Below, in pieces: positions 953 through 9,579 of a stretch of 9,579 bases of DNA. This DNA comes from a virus (Duplodnaviria > Heunggongvirae > Uroviricota > Caudoviricetes), in the IMG/VR virus record IMGVR_UViG_2690316286_000014, one strand, 5' to 3'. The notes beneath the pieces were generated by a model that saw only the letters and a program-made list of their open reading frames with translations, was not told where the DNA came from and did no database searches. The position numbers and the translations under genes were made by a program. Positions within the stretch are counted from its first letter, which is position 1. Each line of letters begins with the position of its first letter.

Positions 953-1108
953 TTACTCTCTAGATTCGTAGTCTACGAAGACAGCGACCTCCGTCTGGCC
1001 GGTTCGGATTCGTACCTCACAGAGGTCTTTCCTCGTTACCAGTGCCGTCGCTATGACGGTTAAACAGATGACGATCAGGGCGATTAACATCGCCTTTTGC
1101 TGCTTCAT
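953..1108 (-). CDS. hok: Hok/Gef-family membrane toxin (type I toxin, 51 aa)
   Basis: Translation MKQQKAMLIALIVICLTVIATALVTRKDLCEVRIRTGQTEVAVFVDYESRE has the Hok/Gef hallmarks: a single hydrophobic helix, the conserved TRKDLCEV and RTGQTEVAVF segments, and an acidic C-terminus. ATG at 1108 is preceded by AGGAG at a workable spacing. Confidence 0.85.
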   Translation of the reverse strand: MKQQKAMLIALIVICLTVIATALVTRKDLCEVRIRTGQTEVAVFVDYESRE

Positions 1109-1165
1109 AGCCTGCTTCTCCTTGCCTTTCGGCACGTAAGAGGCTAACCTACATGTGTTCAGCAT
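953..1165 (-). CDS. mok: Mok-like in-frame N-terminally extended reading frame enclosing hok (70 aa)
   Basis: ATG at 1165 is in frame with hok with no intervening stop (MLNTCRLASYVPKGKEKQA then the Hok sequence). This matches the in-frame MokC/HokC arrangement recalled for chromosomal hok loci. Confidence 0.5.
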   Translation of the reverse strand: MLNTCRLASYVPKGKEKQAMKQQKAMLIALIVICLTVIATALVTRKDLCEVRIRTGQTEVAVFVDYESRE

Positions 1166-1284
1166 GGATTGAGCCTCAGCTTAATGTTAAGCGTCTTGCA
1201 GGACGCGTAATGTTAACTGGGGCTTTTCTCTATCTGCCTTTTGGTGTTCATGCCTGAGGCAGATAGCCTCAAGCACCCATTATG

Positions 1285-1313
1285 ATTTTAACCAAAGTCT
1301 TTATATCTATAAA
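1285..1313 (-). promoter_or_regulatory. Putative sigma70 promoter for the mok/hok mRNA
   Basis: On the minus strand, -35 TTTATA (1313-1308) and -10 TAAAAT (1290-1285) are separated by 17 nt. The -10 overlaps the stop codon of the upstream peptidase gene; the predicted start near 1278 gives a leader of about 110 nt before the mok ATG. Confidence 0.3.
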
Positions 1314-2191
1314 GAGGCACAATATTACTCGATATATCATCATGTGTGCGCCTTATTCCAAACATTTTGGAAACAAAGCGTTCCCTCACTCCCGACATAT
1401 CCAGTATCTGCTTCCAAGAAGATATATCCAGCAATTCAACTGCACAGGAAAGTAAGCGAGGTTTTTCCTCAGGGATTAACTCATCCCCCATCTCTCCTTT
1501 AATCGTCCCTCTTTTATTTAGATGGATAAATCCCGTTCTCATTTGTTGTGGCGTAATCAGCCCCAAAACCGTAGCACGATAAATACACATGCGAAGACTG
1601 ATTTTCCATCGTTCTTTGAAATTAATTAGTGCATTCCAGTCAAGATGCGATCCTCGCATTTTAGGAAATTCATTAACGAACGAAACTCTAGGTACAAGGA
1701 ATGCGCTCGAAAAATAATCCGCATGATGTTCTGTAATTTTATCCCCTGTTATAATCCCTTCATGCAAAACAAGATGCCCCAGTTCATGACCGAGATCTGA
1801 GCGAAATCGACACACACTCTTTTTCGCGGAATTTCTAATTATCAATGGGCGTTTACTATTAATAGTAAACGCATCAATACGATCATCCACGCCAGATACA
1901 TGAGCAACAACAACCCCAATACTTTCCACGAAATTAACCATTGAAGATATCGGTCCCAGCCCCAACCCCCAATACCTTCTACAGGCCTCGGCAATTCTTT
2001 CAATATCTTCATCGGAGTTCAAAGGTAATCCGGACGTATCAGGAAAGTTCAATTCTGGAAGAACTATTTCTGTTTCCAAACACTTTACAAACTGCTCCAA
2101 AATTTCAGCTCGAGCCAGAATACTATTAGTTAAGGACTGCGTCCTTGATCTCTTGCTTCTGAAATGGCAGTTCTCGCTGTCTAATGGTGAT
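1288..2191 (-). CDS. ImmA/IrrE-family (Peptidase_M78 / COG2856-like) zinc metallopeptidase domain protein; C-terminal 301 codons visible, 5' part hidden by N-run
   Basis: 301 codons are open down to TAA at 1288-1290 in sequence of about 40 percent GC. HELGH sits at 1774-1788 (minus), followed by EHHADYFSSAFLVP, which fits the HEXXH...E..A..FA..LL.P pattern of ImmA/IrrE peptidases. The preceding DIERIAEACRRYWGLGLGPISSMVNFVESIGVVV also looks typical of that domain. About 130 residues C-terminal to the domain have no recognisable motif. Confidence 0.8.
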
Positions 2192-2687
2192 NNNNNNNNN
2201 NNNNNNNNNNNNNNNNNNNNNNNNNNNNNNNNNNNNNNNNNNNNNNNNNNNNNNNNNNNNNNNNNNNNNNNNNNNNNNNNNNNNNNNNNNNNNNNNNNNN
2301 NNNNNNNNNNNNNNNNNNNNNNNNNNNNNNNNNNNNNNNNNNNNNNNNNNNNNNNNNNNNNNNNNNNNNNNNNNNNNNNNNNNNNNNNNNNNNNNNNNNN
2401 NNNNNNNNNNNNNNNNNNNNNNNNNNNNNNNNNNNNNNNNNNNNNNNNNNNNNNNNNNNNNNNNNNNNNNNNNNNNNNNNNNNNNNNNNNNNNNNNNNNN
2501 NNNNNNNNNNNNNNNNNNNNNNNNNNNNNNNNNNNNNNNNNNNNNNNNNNNNNNNNNNNNNNNNNNNNNNNNNNNNNNNNNNNNNNNNNNNNNNNNNNNN
2601 NNNNNNNNNNNNNNNNNNNNNNNNNNNNNNNNNNNNNNNNNNNNNNNNNNNNNNNNNNNNNNNNNNNNNNNNNNNNNNNNNNNNNNN
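2192..2687. other. N-run (496 nt): gap or masked sequence inside the peptidase locus
   Basis: Uninterrupted n characters; length is not a multiple of 3. Confidence 1.
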
Positions 2688-3165
2688 CAAAACCTATCAG
2701 GGCTAAAAGCCACGTTGGAGGTTCGATATCTTCATCTTTTTTATTTGCAGATGGTAATTTTTCAGCCAGAACACGCCATGTAACATCATGTTCAAAATTA
2801 ACATCATCTTCAAAAAGAGATAACTGACGACACTCAACATCATTTTTACATAAGCGATGTTTCTTTTTTGGTGAATCCAGTTTATCGGTCACAAACTGTA
2901 ACGGCACCCTGTTCAGGGTAAACACAAAATTCAGAGGTGTTGAAAGAATCGCCACTCCTTTGAGTTTTTTATGATTTTTTACAAGAAAGTTTTTTATCCA
3001 TCCATAGGCCCTACATCCATTAATCCAGTTATCATCATACTCATGGCGATGGAACCATAATTCGCCAAGTACGTTAGCAAATTGCTGAAGAAGATTGATA
3101 ACAGATTTTTCATCCAAACAAGGATTGATTTCAAAACACGGTTGGAGATTCTGTTCAGACGGCAT
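2688..3165 (-). CDS. AT-rich hypothetical protein, N-terminal 159 codons visible; either the N-terminus of the peptidase protein or a separate upstream gene
   Basis: Open frame of 159 codons in sequence of roughly 30-35 percent GC, where random stops would be frequent. ATG at 3165 is preceded by GAGGG about 7 nt upstream. Translation MPSEQNLQPCFEINPCLDEKSVINLLQQFANVLGELWFHRHEYDDNWINGCRAYGW... has no HTH or other motif I can recognise. It shares a coordinate frame with 1288..2191 (the track's 639-aa ORF), but the N-run makes that uninformative. Confidence 0.6.
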
Positions 3166-3319
3166 AAGGTATCCCTCTCTCTTAAAACTCCGCTCATCTT
3201 TACGCAAAATTTTATTTTTGTAAACCTAATCTTTGGGGTATTTCACGAATTCGTCAACCAGTTGAACGAACTTTAACCACAATACATATTTATCTACATT
3301 GATATGAGTATCGCTAACA

Positions 3320-3987: not shown

Positions 3988-4713
3988 TCACTTTTCCGAC
4001 ACAATACGACCGGAGGAATCGACAATCTGTCGAACAATATCCCGGTGCTTGTTCAGCTCCCGCAACGCGGCGCAGACACGCTCCCACTTCTGGACATGAC
4101 TTTTCGCCCGACGCAGTTCGCGGTTTGCCATATGCAGCGATGGTAAAACCAGGTCATCCGCTTGCGTTTCGGTGAACGATGGCAACGACTGCACAATGTC
4201 CGCCACAGTTTCTGTTTTAATTTCTTCCTGTGTTGCAGCTTCCTGTACCGGTAACGCAACACCTGCTGGCTGAGGAAAGACTTTACCATCCGTTTCCGCT
4301 ATGGATGCGGCTTTCGGCTCTGCCGGTAAATCAGCGCCCGGTATGCAGTACCGAAATTTACCGCCCTGATTCACGCGAATCAGACGCCCTTTGCTGATTG
4401 CCATGGCCAGCGATGAATTCGCCCGGCGGGAGGTAATCCCGAACATCAGTGCCAGCTCATCCGCCGTTTGTGGGCCATGTTGTTCAATCGCCTCAGTCAG
4501 CATTTGCGCTGTCACTTTCGGTACCGGTGACACTGGTTCACTTTCACCAGCCTGAATCAGCCACCACATCGAACCCTTGTTATCCGCTTCACCACGGCGC
4601 TTCAGTTTCCACAGTTCGTTGACCGCATCTTCACGGCTGATTCCAAGGCGGGACGCCACCACATGTGAAGAGGCTCTTTTCAGTGCTTTCAGTGCGTCAA
4701 ATACAGTTTCCAT
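3988..4713 (-). CDS. Phage protein with two winged-helix-like segments (241 aa), function unknown
   Basis: ATG at 4713 ([12 protein letters not shown]...) is preceded by GGAGG 7 nt upstream; the track ORF starts 6 codons earlier at a TTG. Stop at 3988-3990. Confidence 0.75.
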
Positions 4714-4734
4714 TAAAACATCCTCCAACAAAAA

Positions 4735-5350
4735 TTACTTCACAACTCCCGGAAAGCTGACATTTGAACGCCAGCTATCCCAGTTAAACGTCACCCACCG
4801 ACAACCGTTCATGGTCATGCGGTCCATAATNNNNNNNNNNNNNNNNNNNNNNNNNNNNNNNNNNNNNNNNNNNNNNNNNNNNNNNNNNNNNNNNNNNNNN
4901 NNNNNNNNNNNNNNNNNNNNNNNNNNNNNNNNNNNNNNNNNNNNNNNNNNNNNNNNNNNNNNNNNNNNNNNNNNNNNNNNNNNNNNNNNNNNNNNNNNNN
5001 NNNNNNNNNNNNNNNNNNNNNNNNNNNNNNNNNNNNNNNNNNNNNNNNNNNNNNNNNNNNNNNNNNNNNNNNNNNNNNNNNNNNNNNNNNNNNNNNNNNN
5101 NNNNNNNNNNNNNNNNNNNNNNNNNNNNNNNNNNNNNNNNNNNNNNNNNNNNNNNNNNNNNNNNNNNNNNNNNNNNNNNNNNNNNNNNNNNNNNNNNNNN
5201 NNNNNNNNNNNNNNNNNNNNNNNNNNNNNNNNNNNNNNNNNNNNNNNNNNNNNNNNNNNNNNNNNNNNNNNNNNNNNNNNNGGATTTGGCCTGGCTCAGC
5301 GCGTATTTTTGCCCGTCGTTCTGCACCTGATAATTCGCAAACGAGCATTT
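4735..5350 (-). CDS. Second, diverged DnaC-like helicase-loader copy (C-terminal 31 codons and a 23-codon internal island visible; remainder is N)
   Basis: 4735-4830 translates to IMDRMTMNGCRWVTFNWDSWRSNVSFPGVVK then stop, against VMDRMVMNGGRWVNFNWESWRPNVSHSRVVK at the end of the 5904..6650 protein. The island 5282-5350 translates to KCSFANYQVQNDGQKYALSQAKS against KCSFANYRAQNDGQRHALSQAKS. The two visible parts are not in the same coordinate frame across the 451-nt N-run, so the gene may be disrupted or the N-run length may not be exact. Confidence 0.5.
4831..5281. other. N-run (451 nt): gap or masked sequence
   Basis: Uninterrupted n characters. Confidence 1.
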
Positions 5351-5633
5351 NNNNNNNNNNNNNNNNNNNNNNNNNNNNNNNNNNNNNNNNNNNNNNNNNN
5401 NNNNNNNNNNNNNNNNNNNNNNNNNNNNNNNNNNNNNNNNNNNNNNNNNNNNNNNNNNNNNNNNNNNNNNNNNNNNNNNNNNNNNNNNNNNNNNNNNNNN
5501 NNNNNNNNNNNNNNNNNNNNNNNNNNNNNNNNNNNNNNNNNNNNNNNNNNNNNNNNNNNNNNNNNNNNNNNNNNNNNNNNNNNNNNNNNNNNNNNNNNNN
5601 NNNNNNNNNNNNNNNNNNNNNNNNNNNNNNNNN
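5351..5633. other. N-run (283 nt): gap or masked sequence
   Basis: Uninterrupted n characters. Confidence 1.
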
Positions 5634-5889
5634 TCACCTTTACCCTCGATAGCTTTTTGCGGGCGTTTTGCCAGTCTTTATGAGCCTGTTCAGAGGGAAA
5701 TACCCCGTAGCCAGAATTATATACATCACCACTTGCGACCAGTTCCATGCATAAGCGACCGACAGACGCACGACTGATACCTGTTTCATCTGACAACTGC
5801 CGAATCGTGACCCGACCGTCCTGATGCACGAGTTCCACAATTCGCGTCTTCAGTTCTTCCCGCTGTTCGGGAGTAAAAGGTTTCGCCAT
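5634..5889 (-). CDS. Small phage protein with a winged-helix-like domain; N-terminal 85 codons visible, 3' end in N-run
   Basis: ATG at 5889 is preceded by AGGAGG. Translation MAKPFTPEQREELKTRIVELVHQDGRVTIRQLSDETGISRASVGRLCMELVASGDVYNSGYGVFPSEQAHKDWQNARKKLSRVKV is paralogous to the 3547..3972 product. Confidence 0.7.
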
Positions 5890-5903
5890 AAATCCTCCTG
5901 AAA

Positions 5904-6650
5904 CTACTTAACAACCCTCGAATGGCTAACATTCGGACGCCAGCTCTCCCAGTTAAAATTCACCCAGCGCCCGCCGTTCATGACCATGCGATCCATCACC
6001 CGCTCGCCGAGAAGTGTATTCATCGCTGCATGGTTAATATTTGTCAGCATCCCCACACCGCGTAACGATGCCGTCCGGCGATCAACAATCTGGTTCAGTA
6101 CCACCTGCTCGTTTTTCGTATCCCGCTGCATGCCAATTTCATCCAGGACCAGCAGGTCAACACCACAAAGCTCCTGTAAAAATTTTTCACCGGATTTGCC
6201 GTTGTCGTAGCTCTCATGCAACACGCTCATGACATCGGACACGGTGACGATAATCACGCTACGCCCCTTCGCCATCAGCCGGTTGCCAATCGCGTCTGCA
6301 AGATGATTTTTTCCGGTGCCGGGCTTACCGCTGAACACAAAATTCGTACAGCCTGTCATCAGTTCGTCAGCTATGGATTTCGCCTGACTCAGTGCATGTC
6401 GCTGACCGTCGTTCTGCGCCCGGTAATTCGCAAACGAACACTTCCGGTGCAACGGCTGGATGCCGGAGCGGTTCAGGATTTTTTCCACCCGCAACTGACG
6501 ATTCAGGCGGTTGATCTCCTCGCAACGTTTCTGGCCTTCAGCAAGTTGCCACTCGCGCCACTCCGCTACCGTTCTGAATGGGGCGGTTACATGTGGCGGG
6601 GTCAGTCGGCGGATGCGTTCCAGAACGCCTCCTGTCGCAATATTTTTCAT
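5904..6650 (-). CDS. DnaC/IstB-like AAA+ helicase loader (prophage replication protein, 248 aa)
   Basis: Walker A GKPGTGKNHLA and Walker B LLVLDEIG are present. The protein is close to chromosomal DnaC along its whole length as I recall it (NRSGI.PLH..CSF.NYR, LTNSN-like segment, GERVMDRM). ATG at 6650. Confidence 0.9.
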   Translation of the reverse strand: MKNIATGGVLERIRRLTPPHVTAPFRTVAEWREWQLAEGQKRCEEINRLNRQLRVEKILNRSGIQPLHRKCSFANYRAQNDGQRHALSQAKSIADELMTGCTNFVFSGKPGTGKNHLADAIGNRLMAKGRSVIIVTVSDVMSVLHESYDNGKSGEKFLQELCGVDLLVLDEIGMQRDTKNEQVVLNQIVDRRTASLRGVGMLTNINHAAMNTLLGERVMDRMVMNGGRWVNFNWESWRPNVSHSRVVK

Positions 6651-6656
6651 GGTCTG

Positions 6657-7856
6657 TTACCCCCTGAAGCCTGGCGGGATCGCACTGTCCGGCAACGAGA
6701 CGGTGTTAACCTGTCGGAGCAACGTCTCAGGCCGAACACCTTTCGGCGCGAACAGACCCTGGTATTCATTGGCGATGCTGTGTCGAATCACCTGCTCAGG
6801 TGTAAAACCCTGCTGACGGAATTTTTCCAGTTCCCGTATCGCCCCGTTAGCGCCCTGCTCCGTTCGAATCGGTTTTCGCAATGCCTGCCTGAACTGGACC
6901 CACTCATGCCAGAGTGTTTCTGGCAACCAGTCGGGCAGATCAACTGACAACGGGTCAAATTTTTTCTGGCGAACAGCCCCACCGATAACCAGAATTCCCT
7001 GCTCGGTGTGCCTTGCGATATCACTGCGCCGCAAGACACATATCCCGGTTTCAACAGCACCGATTTTGAGCAGTGATTTCTGTCGCGGAGAATTTCGGTC
7101 AAGCTCGCTCCCACACCGGACACCGTTCCTGTCAGTCACGACGATATCAATCCGCCCTCCGCAACCGTCACCACGCTCTGGCACCGGATACTCACGACAG
7201 ACATCCAGGCCAGCAGCCTGCAACGCAACCACCGCAGAATTACAAAATTCCGCTGCAGTACCGCCAGATAATCTCCCCTCAAGCACTCCAGCCACAAAAT
7301 CCCGAAACTCCCTTCCGGAAGGGAAGGGTTTGGGATGGGTTAGATCTGTTTTTAGATCTTTATCTGTATCTTTATTAGTTGCCTTTGTGTTGGCATCATG
7401 TTCGAACATCACTCCAACATCTGTTTGAACACCTGTTAAATTTCTCTCTTGTTTTGTTTGAACATCTGCTTCCTTTCTGCTTCTTCTGGCCTGAACAGAT
7501 GCTTTTCCTGCGGCTGATTTTTTGGTTAATTTTTCTCTGACAGATGCCAGATCTTCCTCAATCCGAAGATGCATCCATTCGTCGCCGTTATCACAAAAAA
7601 ACTCCCGCAAGGATGGTTCAACATCAACCCATCGCTCGTTAGTCAGACGGGCAATTTTTGCCAACCTGTTTTTGGGTATTGGCTTTCCTGTTTGCCAGTA
7701 ATTGAACATCAGCAACAAATACGCGCCGTGCTCCTCTGCTGACAAATGCATGGTGTCAGCCAGGTAATCAGCTATGTACAGTTGCATGTATGGTAATGCG
7801 GCCATAATTGCCCCGTATGATGCTGCCCGGTTGCTTAGAATAAGCACAAACAGCAT
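6657..7856 (-). CDS. Phage replication initiation protein: DUF1376-like N-terminal domain plus DnaT-like C-terminal domain (YdaU-like, 399 aa; true start may be the internal ATG near 7805)
   Basis: N-terminus MAALPYMQLYIADYLADTMHLSAEEHGAYLLLMFNYWQTG is DUF1376-like. C-terminus ...VNTVSLPDSAIPPGFRG matches the DnaT C-terminus as recalled. A low-complexity K/T/D-rich linker lies between them. The stop is 4 nt upstream of the DnaC-like start, a dnaT-dnaC-like pairing. Confidence 0.85.
   Translation of the reverse strand: MLFVLILSNRAASYGAIMAALPYMQLYIADYLADTMHLSAEEHGAYLLLMFNYWQTGKPIPKNRLAKIARLTNERWVDVEPSLREFFCDNGDEWMHLRIEEDLASVREKLTKKSAAGKASVQARRSRKEADVQTKQERNLTGVQTDVGVMFEHDANTKATNKDTDKDLKTDLTHPKPFPSGREFRDFVAGVLEGRLSGGTAAEFCNSAVVALQAAGLDVCREYPVPERGDGCGGRIDIVVTDRNGVRCGSELDRNSPRQKSLLKIGAVETGICVLRRSDIARHTEQGILVIGGAVRQKKFDPLSVDLPDWLPETLWHEWVQFRQALRKPIRTEQGANGAIRELEKFRQQGFTPEQVIRHSIANEYQGLFAPKGVRPETLLRQVNTVSLPDSAIPPGFRG
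7340..7505. repeat. Iteron-like direct and inverted repeats with an adjacent AT-rich segment: candidate replication origin inside the initiator gene
   Basis: Near-identical 14-mers TGTTTGAACACCTG (7422-7435) and TGTTTGAACATCTG (7455-7468); related copies TGTTCGAACATC (7399-7410) and AACATCTGTT (7416-7425); inverted copy CCTGAACAGATGC (7489-7501). An AT-rich block at 7340-7378 contains TTAGATCT twice. Confidence 0.4.
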
Positions 7857-7868
7857 GGAAACTTTTGC

Positions 7869-8290
7869 TTAATGAACAATGACAGAATCGTCGGAAGACC
7901 CGCCGCCGCTGAAATGCGCTTTCCGGTAAACGGCCTGGACTGCATCATCATGCGCATCAATTGCCGTACTCAACGCTTCCTGCGCCGCCAGTAATGCACG
8001 GCGTTCCAGGGTATCGAAGATGCAGAGTCGGTGACGCAGCTCGCGCGGAAGAATTGCCAGAACCGCAGGGATCAGTTTCTGAATTTTTTCCCTTTGCGCT
8101 TTCGTTTCACCTTTCAACCAACGGTGATAGATATTCTGCTGATTGTTCCAGTCCTTGCCTGGTACAAGGGGCAATTCGCCGCCCCCCTGGCGCAGATATT
8201 CTTCAGTAATTGCGTTAGCGACCCACGCCTGCCCTTTTTCGGCTGCCAGGGCAACAGCACTGATTCGATGTGCTCATGCCTGATTTTCAT
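7869..8290 (-). CDS. YdaT/CII-like prophage regulator with an apparent frameshift near 8252-8256 (possible pseudogene or sequencing error)
   Basis: ATG at 8290-8288 overlaps the Cro-like stop (ATGA) and reads MKIRHEHIESVLL before drifting into rare codons and a stop. The coding-like frame with E. coli codon usage (...ALAAEKGQAWVANAITEEYLRQGGGELPLVPGKDWNNQQ...SDDSVIVH) is offset by one and has no standard start before the TTG at 8174 (track ORF 7869..8174). One extra base in the + strand run GCAACAG would join the two into about 140 aa, the size I recall for YdaT. Confidence 0.6.
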
Positions 8291-8529
8291 GAATCAACCG
8301 CTCCTATGCTGTTTTCGCTATGCTTACCGTCTGGGGGGAATACATCGTCAAGTCCACAATGAGCGCCAAGCCGATTAAGGGTAGAAACAATTTTTCTGCA
8401 CTCCTCTAGTCCAGGGGTACGAAAATTTGCTTCGTAATTTGCCAGTCGGCTTTGTATCCACCCTAACTGAACAGCAAGTTGTCTTTGAGACAGCCCAAGC
8501 TGTTTTCGATATGTTGAAATTTTGTTCAT
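8287..8529 (-). CDS. Cro-like XRE-family helix-turn-helix regulator (80 aa)
   Basis: ATG at 8529 with GGAGG 5 nt upstream. HTH segment LGLSQRQLAVQLGWIQSRLANYE. Divergent from the repressor gene. Confidence 0.85.
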   Translation of the reverse strand: MNKISTYRKQLGLSQRQLAVQLGWIQSRLANYEANFRTPGLEECRKIVSTLNRLGAHCGLDDVFPPDGKHSENSIGAVDS

Positions 8530-8625
8530 TGAAAACCTCCGATGACAATTTTAAACACACCTTGTGTTATATAGCCAAGCTGTTTTGTGTTTTATGTAAA
8601 TCACGATTCGTGATACAAGGATGCA
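8530..8625. promoter_or_regulatory. Divergent promoter/operator region of the immunity switch
   Basis: 96-bp intergenic region between divergent HTH genes. Contains the 7-1-7 inverted repeat ATCACGAtTCGTGAT (8600-8614), AACAC-N5-GTGTT (8554-8568) and TTGTGTT twice (8562-8568, 8585-8591). A minus-strand promoter candidate is -35 TTGGCT (8578-8573) with -10 TAAAAT (8553-8548). Confidence 0.55.
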
Positions 8626-9045
8626 ATGGAAAAAGAAAACGAAAAAATTGCCGCTAGTAGGCTCAATGACAAAATTGCAATGCGTCTTAAAGAGCGCAGG
8701 CAGAAGCTTGGTTTATCTCAAGGAAAACTTGCTGAAATCTGCGGATGGACGCAATCGCGTATAGGTAACTATGAGGCGGGCAGCAGAAATGTTGGAGTAC
8801 ATGACGCTGTCGTATTGGGAAAGGCACTTGGCATATCTCCTCCTGAGCTCCTCTTTGGAGAACAGGAATCTTCTGAATTGTGGTTAAATGAATCCCAACG
8901 AAAACTTCTTGAGTTGTTTAACCAGCTACCGGGCTCAGAACAACAACGAATGATTGAGCTATTTGAAGTCCGGCTAAAAGAAATCGATGAGTATGTAGAA
9001 AAATATTTGAGAGGCAGGATTAAAGATAATCCCCCACCGGAATAA
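8626..9045 (+). CDS. CI/DicA-like XRE-family HTH prophage repressor (139 aa), no LexA-like autocleavage domain
   Basis: HTH segment LGLSQGKLAEICGWTQSRIGNYEAG. The C-terminal LLELFNQLPGSEQQ resembles the DicA C-terminus as recalled. ATG at 8626 with AAGGA upstream; stop TAA at 9043-9045. Confidence 0.9.
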   Translation: MEKENEKIAASRLNDKIAMRLKERRQKLGLSQGKLAEICGWTQSRIGNYEAGSRNVGVHDAVVLGKALGISPPELLFGEQESSELWLNESQRKLLELFNQLPGSEQQRMIELFEVRLKEIDEYVEKYLRGRIKDNPPPE

Positions 9046-9075
9046 TGATCTTGCTATCACAGTAATATGCCAATC

Positions 9076-9099
9076 AGCCCGCTATCAGCGGGCTTTTTT
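9076..9099 (+). terminator. Rho-independent terminator downstream of the repressor gene
   Basis: 8-bp stem AGCCCGCT/AGCGGGCT (9076-9083 with 9087-9094), loop ATC, followed by TTTTT (9095-9099). Confidence 0.7.
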
Positions 9100-9141
9100 G
9101 TAGCATCATCATATGACACTCACCATAAAACACATTGCGTG

Positions 9142-9170
9142 TTGACACAAGAAAACAAATTGTGTTTAAT
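9142..9170 (+). promoter_or_regulatory. Sigma70 promoter (PL-like) for the rightward small-gene operon
   Basis: -35 TTGACA (9142-9147), 17-nt spacer, -10 TTTAAT (9165-9170). The spacer carries ACAA...TTGT / TTGTGTT elements resembling those in the 8530-8625 operator region. Confidence 0.55.
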
Positions 9171-9350
9171 AAGCATATCCAAACAACGCCCCACCAGAGA
9201 ACGGCAGGACAATACCTCGAGTTATCCAGTCACTGAACAGGGCTAAGTAGCCAGCCTGAGGCATACGAACATGACGGCAGTTGTTGATTGATACAAAGCG
9301 CAGTAGATAAAACGTTCCGCCACCCGGCGTTAAGGGGAAATGGGGTCAAC

Positions 9351-9506
9351 ATGAATACTATCGATCTTGGCAACAACGAATCTCTGGTATGTGGCGTGTT
9401 TCCCAATCAAGACGGCACATTCACCGCCATGACGTATACCAAAAGCAAAACGTTTAAAACCGAAGCTGGCGCACGTCGTTGGTTGGGAAGACATTCAGGT
9501 GAGTAA
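9351..9506 (+). CDS. Small phage protein (51 aa), first gene downstream of the PL-like promoter
   Basis: ATG at 9351 (MNTIDLGNNESLVCGVFPNQDGTFTAMTYTKSKTFKTEAGARRWLGRHSGE); internal start within track ORF 9288..9506. Its position after the repressor resembles the small ydaF/ydaG-type genes of Rac-like prophages. No motif recognised. Confidence 0.45.
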   Translation: MNTIDLGNNESLVCGVFPNQDGTFTAMTYTKSKTFKTEAGARRWLGRHSGE

Positions 9507-9579
9507 AATGAACGAGACAGAATTAAAACACGTTATCGCTCTACTCCTAAATAGCTGCGCGGAATAGTAGATCACTTTG

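What the first reader, a model, noticed from the sequence alone, without database searches (positions are those of the whole stretch)
7869..8290. Apparent frameshift in the YdaT/CII-like gene
The reading frame that starts at the ATG overlapping the Cro-like stop (8290) and the downstream coding-like frame are offset by one base around 8252-8256; one extra A in the + strand run GCAACAG would restore a single ORF of about 140 aa. If real, the lysis/lysogeny regulator is inactivated or made by slippage, which could lock the prophage in a cryptic state. A G6 run on the coding strand (8187-8192 region) is a second place prone to indel errors. This could equally be an assembly error.
Basis: seen in the sequence. 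Interest (0 to 1): 0.45.

Follow-up and report, generated by a model that had tools for sequence, protein, structure and literature searches.

The report
Frameshifted ydaT pseudogene, Shigella sonnei prophage
A real, inherited one-base deletion breaks the CII-like regulator gene ydaT in a decaying Rac-type prophage of Shigella sonnei: an ordinary prophage pseudogene, neither an assembly error nor a programmed frameshift.

Summary
On the minus strand, ydaT starts at ATG 8290, overlapping the stop of the Cro-position gene as ATGA. After codon 12 it changes frame because one base is missing between 8253 and 8252. That base is the A of Leu13 TTA in intact relatives (T on the plus strand). It is not in a homopolymer. 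The window is the whole scaffold CXCS01000143.1 of a Shigella sonnei assembly. The same deletion occurs in nine S. sonnei assemblies and one independent Logan assembly, so random assembly error is excluded. It is absent from 5,426 complete E. coli genomes, from GTDB species representatives and from JGI metagenomes. All more distant YdaT homologues are single ORFs of 136-146 aa, so the two-frame layout is not a family feature. Translation should stop after 58 codons, only 13 of them YdaT-like. Slippage rescue is unlikely: there is no slippery heptamer at the site, only an accidental A_AAG tetramer with no downstream structure. The G6 run is intact here, but G5 and G7 frameshift alleles exist elsewhere. 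One caveat: S. sonnei carries several near-identical ydaT modules and also an intact allele, so cells may still make YdaT. The idea that this locks the prophage cryptic is not supported.

The parts
7869..8290 (-). ydaT pseudogene (422 nt; intact relatives 423 nt, 140 aa)
   Evidence: The repaired protein hits PF06254 at 2.4e-11 and PDB 3c4r/8bt1 over its full length.
8252..8253 (-). Site of the 1-nt deletion. Gene nt 39, the A of Leu13 TTA, is missing between these two bases. Context GTG CTG TT^G CCC, not a homopolymer.
8114..8290 (-). 58-codon ORF actually read from the ydaT ATG. Residues 1-13 (MKIRHEHIESVLL) match YdaT; the other 45 are out of frame. An AGGAG Shine-Dalgarno sequence ends 10 nt upstream of the ATG.
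   Evidence: No Pfam hit. Exact protein seen only in S. sonnei.
7869..8174 (-). 101-codon ORF in the ancestral frame from internal TTG 8174 (YdaT residues 40-140). It keeps recognition helix residues H56 R57 W58 and tetramerisation helix residues L107 A110, but lacks residues 1-39, which include helix alpha1 and the segment before the recognition helix. Expression is not shown.
   Evidence: PF06254. Residue roles from PMC11879457.
8182..8187 (-). G6 run on the coding strand, intact here. It is an indel hotspot in relatives, and a possible SD-like element 7 nt upstream of TTG 8174.
   Evidence: G5 in L008. G7 in DEC5A, annotated frameshifted.
8234..8240 (-). G_AAA_AAG in the new zero frame (CCG AAA AAG). 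A -1 slip here would restore the frame, but this is an accidental tetramer motif without a stimulator.
   Evidence: codons. (downstream fold z = -0.35). (tetramers alone about 0.15% versus 0.11% background).
8280..8297 (-). YdaT-box inverted repeat TTGATTCATGAAAATCAG spanning the ydaT start codon. The cis site is retained although the gene is broken.
   Evidence: 1 mismatch to TTGATT-N6-AATCAA. The Rac YdaT-box ATGATTCATGAAAATCAA overlaps the ydaT ATG (PMC11879457).
8287..8529 (-). Cro-position gene (80 aa, HTH_3); its stop overlaps the ydaT ATG as ATGA
8626..9045 (+). Divergent repressor gene (139 aa, HTH_3), in the CI/RacR position
6657..7856 (-). ydaU-position replication gene (399 aa, DUF1376), starting 12 nt after the ydaT stop with no obvious SD
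5904..6650 (-). ydaV-like IstB/DnaC-type ATPase gene (248 aa)

Best explanation
This is a genuine, vertically inherited loss-of-function allele of ydaT in the immunity region of a Rac-type cryptic prophage remnant of Shigella sonnei. ydaT encodes the CII-like transcription factor. Shown: one base (A39, third position of Leu13) has been deleted. Ribosomes starting at the intact SD and ATG therefore leave the YdaT frame after 13 residues and stop at TGA 8116-8114. Inferred: the 58-aa product has no DNA-binding or tetramerisation domain and is inert. Inferred: this copy can no longer bind the retained YdaT-box to activate the repressor gene. It also cannot cause the filamentation and toxicity that YdaT causes when derepressed. 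Inferred: early termination 258 nt before ydaU may also reduce expression of the downstream replication genes, through loss of coupling or through polarity. The mutation is either neutral decay of a silent prophage gene or mild selection for losing a toxic regulator. Independent G5 and G7 frameshift alleles in other strains fit both readings.
For: Position and nature of the deletion. Family membership and true start: (the alignment begins at residue 1). Source organism: (Shigella sonnei, GCA_001260675.1). The same deletion is in L003-L007 and L010-L013, from nine S. sonnei assemblies counting the window's own (L002/L009 are this contig again). Seven of those contigs are free of N, and two SNP haplotypes and two upstream contexts are represented. 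It is also in Logan ERR9940591 on a more divergent backbone. A de Bruijn assembler cannot create a deletion k-mer that is absent from the reads (established knowledge). The allele is absent from 5,426 complete E. coli genomes, GTDB species representatives and JGI metagenomes. Among the full-length entries of the 121 homologue clusters, lengths are 136-146 aa as single ORFs. Function of YdaT, its toxicity and the YdaT-box: PMC11879457, PMC8630535, PMC5700377, PMC9986795. Independent frameshifts elsewhere: L008 G5 and DEC5A G7, annotated frameshifted.
Against: No reads, expression data or protein data were available. S. sonnei also holds intact ydaT. Scaffold L007 joins, across a single N, a piece with this same cro gene and an undeleted ydaT nt 1-248. 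A third Rac-like copy has an intact 5' part. UniRef lists the exact repaired protein in 4 S. sonnei entries. So the cell may not be YdaT-null, and the allele's assignment to this particular prophage copy rests on short-read assemblies. The downstream frame is still completely open, so a functional truncated product is not excluded.
Confidence: 0.8

Rival explanations
1. The deletion allele is real, but it belongs to a paralogous prophage copy (the one with a P22_Cro-type cro gene). Its junction to this HTH_3 cro gene would then be a short-read assembly path error or a recent gene conversion, and the prophage in the window would in truth carry an intact ydaT.
For: The window is a scaffold with three N runs. 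The two contexts become identical 6 nt before the ATG and stay so for more than 2.3 kb. L007 part A has this cro gene with T34/A39 intact, while part B has P22_Cro with the deletion. C34 and the deletion always travel together. The exact intact protein is reported from S. sonnei.
Against: Seven contigs from seven different assemblies, all free of N near the site, join the HTH_3 cro gene to the deletion. Only 45 nt separate the divergence point from the deletion, which is within one short read. ydaT lies 2.2 kb from the nearest gap in the window.
Confidence: 0.12
2. Sequencing or assembly error: the true sequence has the extra base and a single 140-aa ORF.
For: Draft short-read scaffold. No complete E. 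coli genome shares the deletion.
Against: Identical deletion in nine S. sonnei assemblies and in a Logan assembly made with a different pipeline. It sits on four sequence backgrounds. The site is not a homopolymer.
Confidence: 0.02
3. Recoding: full-length YdaT is still made, either by -1 ribosomal slippage on CCG AAA AAG (8240-8234) or by polymerase slippage at the G6 run.
For: The deletion puts A_AAG, the most shift-prone tetramer in E. coli, into the zero frame 12 nt downstream, and a -1 shift there restores the frame (PMC4066793).
Against: The motif is not an X_XXZ_ZZN heptamer. Tetramers without a stimulator give about 0.15% against 0.11% background. The downstream fold is no better than shuffles (z = -0.35). 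The same nucleotides are present, in another frame, in intact genes, so nothing has been selected for slippage. The product would carry six wrong residues in helix alpha1. Correction at the G run would scramble residues 14-35. No other family member has the two-frame layout.
Confidence: 0.02
4. The allele is kept because it makes a 101-aa N-terminally truncated YdaT from TTG 8174. That product would retain the tetramerisation helix and poison or modulate intact YdaT made by co-resident prophages.
For: The ancestral frame is open in every deletion allele seen, on four backgrounds. The G-rich SD-like run lies 7 nt before the TTG. G-runs can drive weak initiation 7 nt downstream (PMC4066793). Helix alpha6 alone drives tetramerisation. 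Paralogous intact copies exist. YdaT proteins cross-act between prophages.
Against: No expression evidence. S. sonnei is a recently emerged clone (established knowledge) and the backgrounds look recombinant, so an open frame is expected without selection. TTG is a weak start codon, and it lies inside an ORF that is being translated.
Confidence: 0.04

Closest known systems
YdaT of the E. coli K-12 Rac prophage (UniProt P76064; Wons et al. 2025, PMC11879457)
   Same: Same family (PF06254). Same position between the cro-like gene and ydaU/ydaV. Same YdaT-box over the start codon. Relatives of the window's element sit at the Rac site next to ttcA.
   Different: Here the gene is broken at codon 13. 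The upstream gene is an 80-aa HTH_3 protein rather than K-12 YdaS. Wons et al. stress that the K-12 locus 'remains unmutated'; this allele and the G5/G7 alleles are mutated counter-examples.
YdaT of cryptic prophage CP-933P, E. coli O157:H7 (PDB 8bt1; PMC9986795, PMC8630535)
   Same: Full-length sequence match of the repaired protein (E = 1.2e-5). Same operator consensus TTGATT-N6-AATCAA. Same CII-like role proposed.
   Different: Distant sequence: that paper reports about 30% identity between the CP-933P and Rac proteins. The CP-933P gene is intact and its protein is functional.
Phage lambda CII
   Same: Functional analogue: a tetrameric HTH activator encoded just after cro, which turns on the repressor gene from a promoter reading backwards through cro. 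It is toxic when overproduced.
   Different: Not shown here to be homologous in the family sense. Loss of cII affects establishment of lysogeny, not its maintenance.
Frameshifted ydaT pseudogenes annotated by PGAP (e.g. E. coli O55:H7 DEC5A, E3155_RS10970)
   Same: Same gene, with a single-base indel near the 5' end giving a two-frame pseudogene.
   Different: Different site and sign: +1 in the G6 run, against -1 at nt 39 here.

Membership tests
YdaT family (Pfam PF06254 YdaT_toxin; CII-like POU/HTH tetramer) | Significant match to the family profile | tested here: met
   Repaired 140-aa protein: PF06254 E = 2.4e-11, 44.4 bits against a cut-off of 21. The 101-aa ORF carries PF06254 in precomputed hits.
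YdaT family (Pfam PF06254 YdaT_toxin; CII-like POU/HTH tetramer) | Full-length similarity to solved YdaT structures, including the N-terminus | tested here: met
   3c4r_A aligned 1-140 (E = 1.6e-6) and 8bt1_A aligned 2-140 (E = 1.2e-5).
YdaT family (Pfam PF06254 YdaT_toxin; CII-like POU/HTH tetramer) | DNA-contact residues H56/R57 (and W58) and helix alpha6 residues L107/A110 | tested here: met
Their roles are from PMC11879457.
YdaT family (Pfam PF06254 YdaT_toxin; CII-like POU/HTH tetramer) | Synteny: divergent repressor, cro-like gene, ydaT, ydaU/ydaV replication genes; YdaT-box over the start codon | tested here: met
YdaT family (Pfam PF06254 YdaT_toxin; CII-like POU/HTH tetramer) | Intact single ORF of about 136-146 aa encoding a functional protein | tested here: not met
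   A 1-nt deletion at nt 39 splits the gene into 58-aa and 101-aa ORFs. It is therefore filed as a pseudogene of the family, not a functional member.
Programmed -1 ribosomal frameshift site | Slippery X_XXZ_ZZN heptamer in the zero frame within the frame overlap | tested here: not met
   Only G_AAA_AAG (a tetramer A_AAG) is present. The deletion site itself is CUG UUG CCC.
Programmed -1 ribosomal frameshift site | Downstream stimulatory structure or upstream SD-like stimulator | tested here: not met
   The 84 nt downstream fold at -28.1 kcal/mol against a shuffle mean of -27.0, z = -0.35.
Programmed -1 ribosomal frameshift site | Two-frame organisation conserved among diverged homologues | tested here: not met
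   Full-length homologues in E. coli, Salmonella, Klebsiella, Enterobacter, Raoultella and others are single ORFs. The layout occurs only in near-identical S. sonnei-type alleles.
Programmed -1 ribosomal frameshift site | Measured frameshift product | not testable with these tools
   Needs a reporter fusion or mass spectrometry.

The most novel reading that the evidence does not exclude
The nt-39 deletion allele persists on several prophage backgrounds because it is expressed. It would make a 101-aa YdaT(40-140) from the internal TTG behind the G-rich run. That product would form mixed tetramers with intact YdaT from co-resident Rac-like prophages, acting as a built-in dominant-negative that blunts YdaT toxicity and cross-prophage activation.
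Probability: 0.04. Interest if true: 0.45.

Novelty: already known. Interest (0 to 1): 0.1.

Why it matters
It matters little in itself. The finding is one more decayed prophage gene in Shigella, a lineage known for gene loss. Three points have modest value. [quoted passage not shown] At least three independent frameshift alleles exist: nt 39 deleted, G5 and G7. Second, the YdaT-box is kept while the protein is lost, and intact paralogues exist in the same species. Cross-regulation between co-resident prophage remnants is therefore plausible and testable. Third, it is a practical warning: short-read S. sonnei scaffolds collapse several near-identical ydaT-ydaU-ydaV modules, so allele-to-locus assignment needs long reads.

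Tried and rejected
1. Assembly error was rejected after the exact 58-aa and 101-aa products were found on contigs of nine S. sonnei assemblies.

2. Sharing with E. coli was rejected. The 422-nt and 69-nt queries gave no gap-free match in 5,426 complete genomes.

3. Exact 37-mer scans of GTDB species representatives and of JGI metagenomes found nothing. These negatives are of limited weight, because S. sonnei itself may not be represented there.

4. Ribosomal slippage was rejected: motif inspection, fold z-score and published tetramer efficiencies.

5. An indel at the G6 run in this window was rejected, since the run is identical to intact genes. G5 and G7 queries found no exact match in complete E. 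coli genomes, apart from DEC5A with G7 plus one SNP.

6. I looked for papers reporting ydaT frameshift or suppressor mutations. PMC11014345 had nothing and the 2026 bioRxiv preprint could not be fetched.

7. The phage collection gave only intact relatives: cII-annotated genes in Rac-SA53 and vB_EcoS phages.

8. dN/dS on the deletion alleles was considered and dropped. The backgrounds look recombinant and the S. sonnei clone is too young for the test to be informative.

Full report
**What is in the sequence**

On the minus strand, an ORF starts at ATG 8290-8288. It is preceded by an AGGAG Shine-Dalgarno sequence. It overlaps the TGA of the upstream 80-aa HTH_3 gene (8529-8287) as ATGA.

- This frame reads MKIRHEHIESVLL and then unrelated residues, stopping at TGA 8116-8114 after 58 codons.
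- A second frame is open from about 8273 to TAA 7871-7869. It reads ...ALAAEKGQAWVANAITEEYLRQGGGELPLVPGKDW... through to ...DDSVIVH.
- The list of ORFs shows this second frame as a 101-aa ORF from TTG 8174.

**Where the shift is**

The closest intact gene is in E. coli VL40 (423 nt, 140 aa). It differs from the window by a synonymous T34C change and by one extra base, nt 39, the A of Leu13 TTA. E. coli 2011C-4251 has C34 and A39, exactly one step from the window.

- The missing base falls between + strand C8252 and A8253, in the context GTG CTG TT^G CCC. This is not a homopolymer.

**What the gene is**

- The repaired 140-aa protein hits Pfam PF06254 (YdaT_toxin) at 2.4e-11.
- It aligns end to end with PDB 3c4r and with 8bt1, the CP-933P YdaT. 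ATG 8290 is therefore the true start.
- H56, R57 and W58 (recognition helix) and L107 and A110 (tetramerisation helix) are all present. Their roles were shown by mutation in PMC11879457.
- The neighbourhood is the Rac-type immunity and replication region: DUF1391, a divergent 139-aa HTH_3 repressor, the cro-position gene, ydaT, ydaU-like DUF1376, and a ydaV-like IstB/DnaC ATPase. In E. coli relatives this module sits in a Rac prophage next to ttcA.
- An 18-bp inverted repeat, TTGATTCATGAAAATCAG, spans the ydaT start codon at 8297-8280. It corresponds to the footprinted Rac 'YdaT-box' ATGATTCATGAAAATCAA and to the CP-933P operator TTGATT-N6-AATCAA.

**Is the frameshift real?**

The window is the whole of scaffold CXCS01000143.1 of Shigella sonnei assembly GCA_001260675.1.

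- It contains three runs of N: 2192-2687, 4831-5281 and 5351-5633. ydaT lies in the gap-free block 5634-9579.
- The exact 58-aa product occurs on contigs of four S. sonnei assemblies. The 101-aa product occurs on twelve contigs.
- In the contigs I could read, from nine S. sonnei assemblies including the window's own, the same base is missing. They carry two SNP haplotypes (C or T at nt 249 and 270) and two upstream contexts: HTH_3 cro, or P22_Cro in L013 and L007 part B.
- A Logan assembly of run ERR9940591 has the same deletion on a more divergent ydaT backbone.
- A de Bruijn assembler cannot emit a deletion whose k-mers are not in the reads. Random error is therefore excluded.

**Where the allele is absent**

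- No complete E. coli genome out of 5,426 shares the deletion. All best matches span one more base.
- An exact 37-mer across the site is absent from GTDB species representatives and from JGI metagenome contigs.
- Full-length homologues across Enterobacteriaceae are single ORFs of 136-146 aa.
- The two-frame layout is thus a lineage-specific mutation, not a property of the family.

**A complication: several copies**

S. sonnei has several near-identical ydaT-ydaU-ydaV modules.

- L007 is two contigs joined by a single N. Part A has the window's own upstream region (100% identical over 1,289 nt) followed by ydaT nt 1-248 with T34 and A39 intact. Part B has P22_Cro followed by the deleted allele.
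- L015 shows a third Rac-like copy, whose ydaT is intact for 273 nt and then runs into a scaffold gap.
- UniRef lists the exact repaired protein in four S. sonnei entries.
- The species therefore holds both intact and deleted alleles, either as paralogues in one genome or as a polymorphism.
- Seven N-free contigs join the HTH_3 cro gene to the deletion, across only 45 nt. I therefore think the window's arrangement is genuine. A path error or a gene conversion from the P22_Cro-linked copy keeps about 0.12 probability.

**Consequences**

- Shown: translation from the native start ends after 58 codons, only 13 of them YdaT-like. The product has no Pfam match.
- Inferred from published work: YdaT is a tetrameric HTH activator that binds the YdaT-box and turns on the repressor gene from a reverse promoter, as lambda CII does. 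It is toxic when derepressed, causing filamentation through rcsA. This copy has lost both activities.
- A CII-type factor acts at the establishment of lysogeny. Its loss does not 'lock' an existing prophage.
- The element is already a remnant. In L006 an IS element lies about 1 kb beyond the DUF1391 gene.
- Early termination 258 nt before ydaU, which has no evident SD and starts 12 nt after the ydaT stop, could lower expression of the replication genes. This is an inference.

**Slippage**

The deletion site (CUG UUG CCC) is not slippery.

- By accident, the new zero frame contains CCG AAA AAG, where a -1 slip would restore the frame.
- This is only an A_AAG tetramer. Without a stimulator, such motifs gave about 0.15% against a 0.11% background in E. 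coli (PMC4066793).
- The 84 nt downstream fold no better than shuffled sequence (z = -0.35).
- The same nucleotides occur in intact genes in another frame.
- Recoding is therefore very unlikely.

**Recurrence**

- L008 (Logan DRR704755) carries G5.
- E. coli O55:H7 DEC5A carries G7, and its ydaT is annotated 'frameshifted'.
- At least three independent frameshift alleles of ydaT therefore exist. This fits either neutral decay of a silent gene or selection against a toxic one. It also qualifies the published statement that the locus stays unmutated.

**Verdict**

This is an ordinary, real pseudogene of a well-characterised prophage regulator, in a species known for gene decay. Interest is low. 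The only non-trivial open reading is that the still-open 101-aa frame, with a G-rich SD-like run 7 nt before its TTG, yields a truncated YdaT that interferes with intact paralogues. I give that about 4%.

Noticed in passing
window 2192-2687, 4831-5281, 5351-5633: Three runs of N (496, 451 and 283 bases). The window is a scaffold, not a contig. ORFs that cross these runs, such as the 639-aa TTG ORF at 1288..3207 and the 368-aa ORF at 4577..5683, are artefacts. The DUF977 gene ending at 5889 is cut by the gap at 5633.
   Followed up: yes
window 8280-8297: A YdaT-box inverted repeat (TTGATTCATGAAAATCAG on the minus strand) overlaps the ydaT start codon. It is retained although the gene is broken. 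Intact YdaT from another prophage could still act here, since cross-binding has been shown between the Rac and CP-933P proteins.
   Followed up: partly
window 953-1278 (minus strand): A hok/sok type I toxin-antitoxin locus. The Rfam sok match is at 1103-1278 (120 bits), and a Hok/Gef ORF lies just downstream at about 953-1108.
   Followed up: partly
L007 (GCA_001258435.1, CXCX01000194.1) 1290-2415: A single N at 1538 joins two pieces. One has the HTH_3 cro gene plus an undeleted ydaT nt 1-248. The other has P22_Cro plus the deleted ydaT. This indicates at least two ydaT modules in S. sonnei, with different alleles.
   Followed up: partly
L015 (GCA_001257395.1, CWUF01000056.1) 4001-4534: A third Rac-like copy with recE, kilR and sieB alongside. 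Its K-12-like ydaT allele (MKIKHEHI...) is intact for 273 nt and then meets a 261-N scaffold gap. The repeated ydaT-ydaU-ydaV block breaks short-read assemblies.
   Followed up: partly
L008 (Logan DRR704755) 2298-2719; L020 (E. coli O55:H7 DEC5A) 330-753: Independent ydaT frameshifts at the G6 run: G5 in L008, and G7 in DEC5A, which RefSeq annotates as 'frameshifted'.
   Followed up: yes
L006 (GCA_001252175.1) 1-1090: An IS transposase (rve, HTH_Tnp_1) lies about 1 kb beyond the DUF1391 gene, where Rac relatives have rha, kilR and recET. The prophage's left arm seems to be cut off in S. sonnei.
   Followed up: no
window 4366-4383: A second, weaker YdaT-box-like inverted repeat, CTGATTCACGCGAATCAG (2 mismatches). 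Two matches at this stringency occur in 39 of 200 shuffles, so it may be chance.
   Followed up: no
phage record PP818812.1 (hit H66): A phage labelled Actinobacillus phage vB_Apl-pPE4 carries the cro-ydaT pair at 95% DNA identity to this Shigella/E. coli module. That is odd for a Pasteurellaceae phage and may reflect an E. coli prophage contaminant or mislabelling.
   Followed up: no
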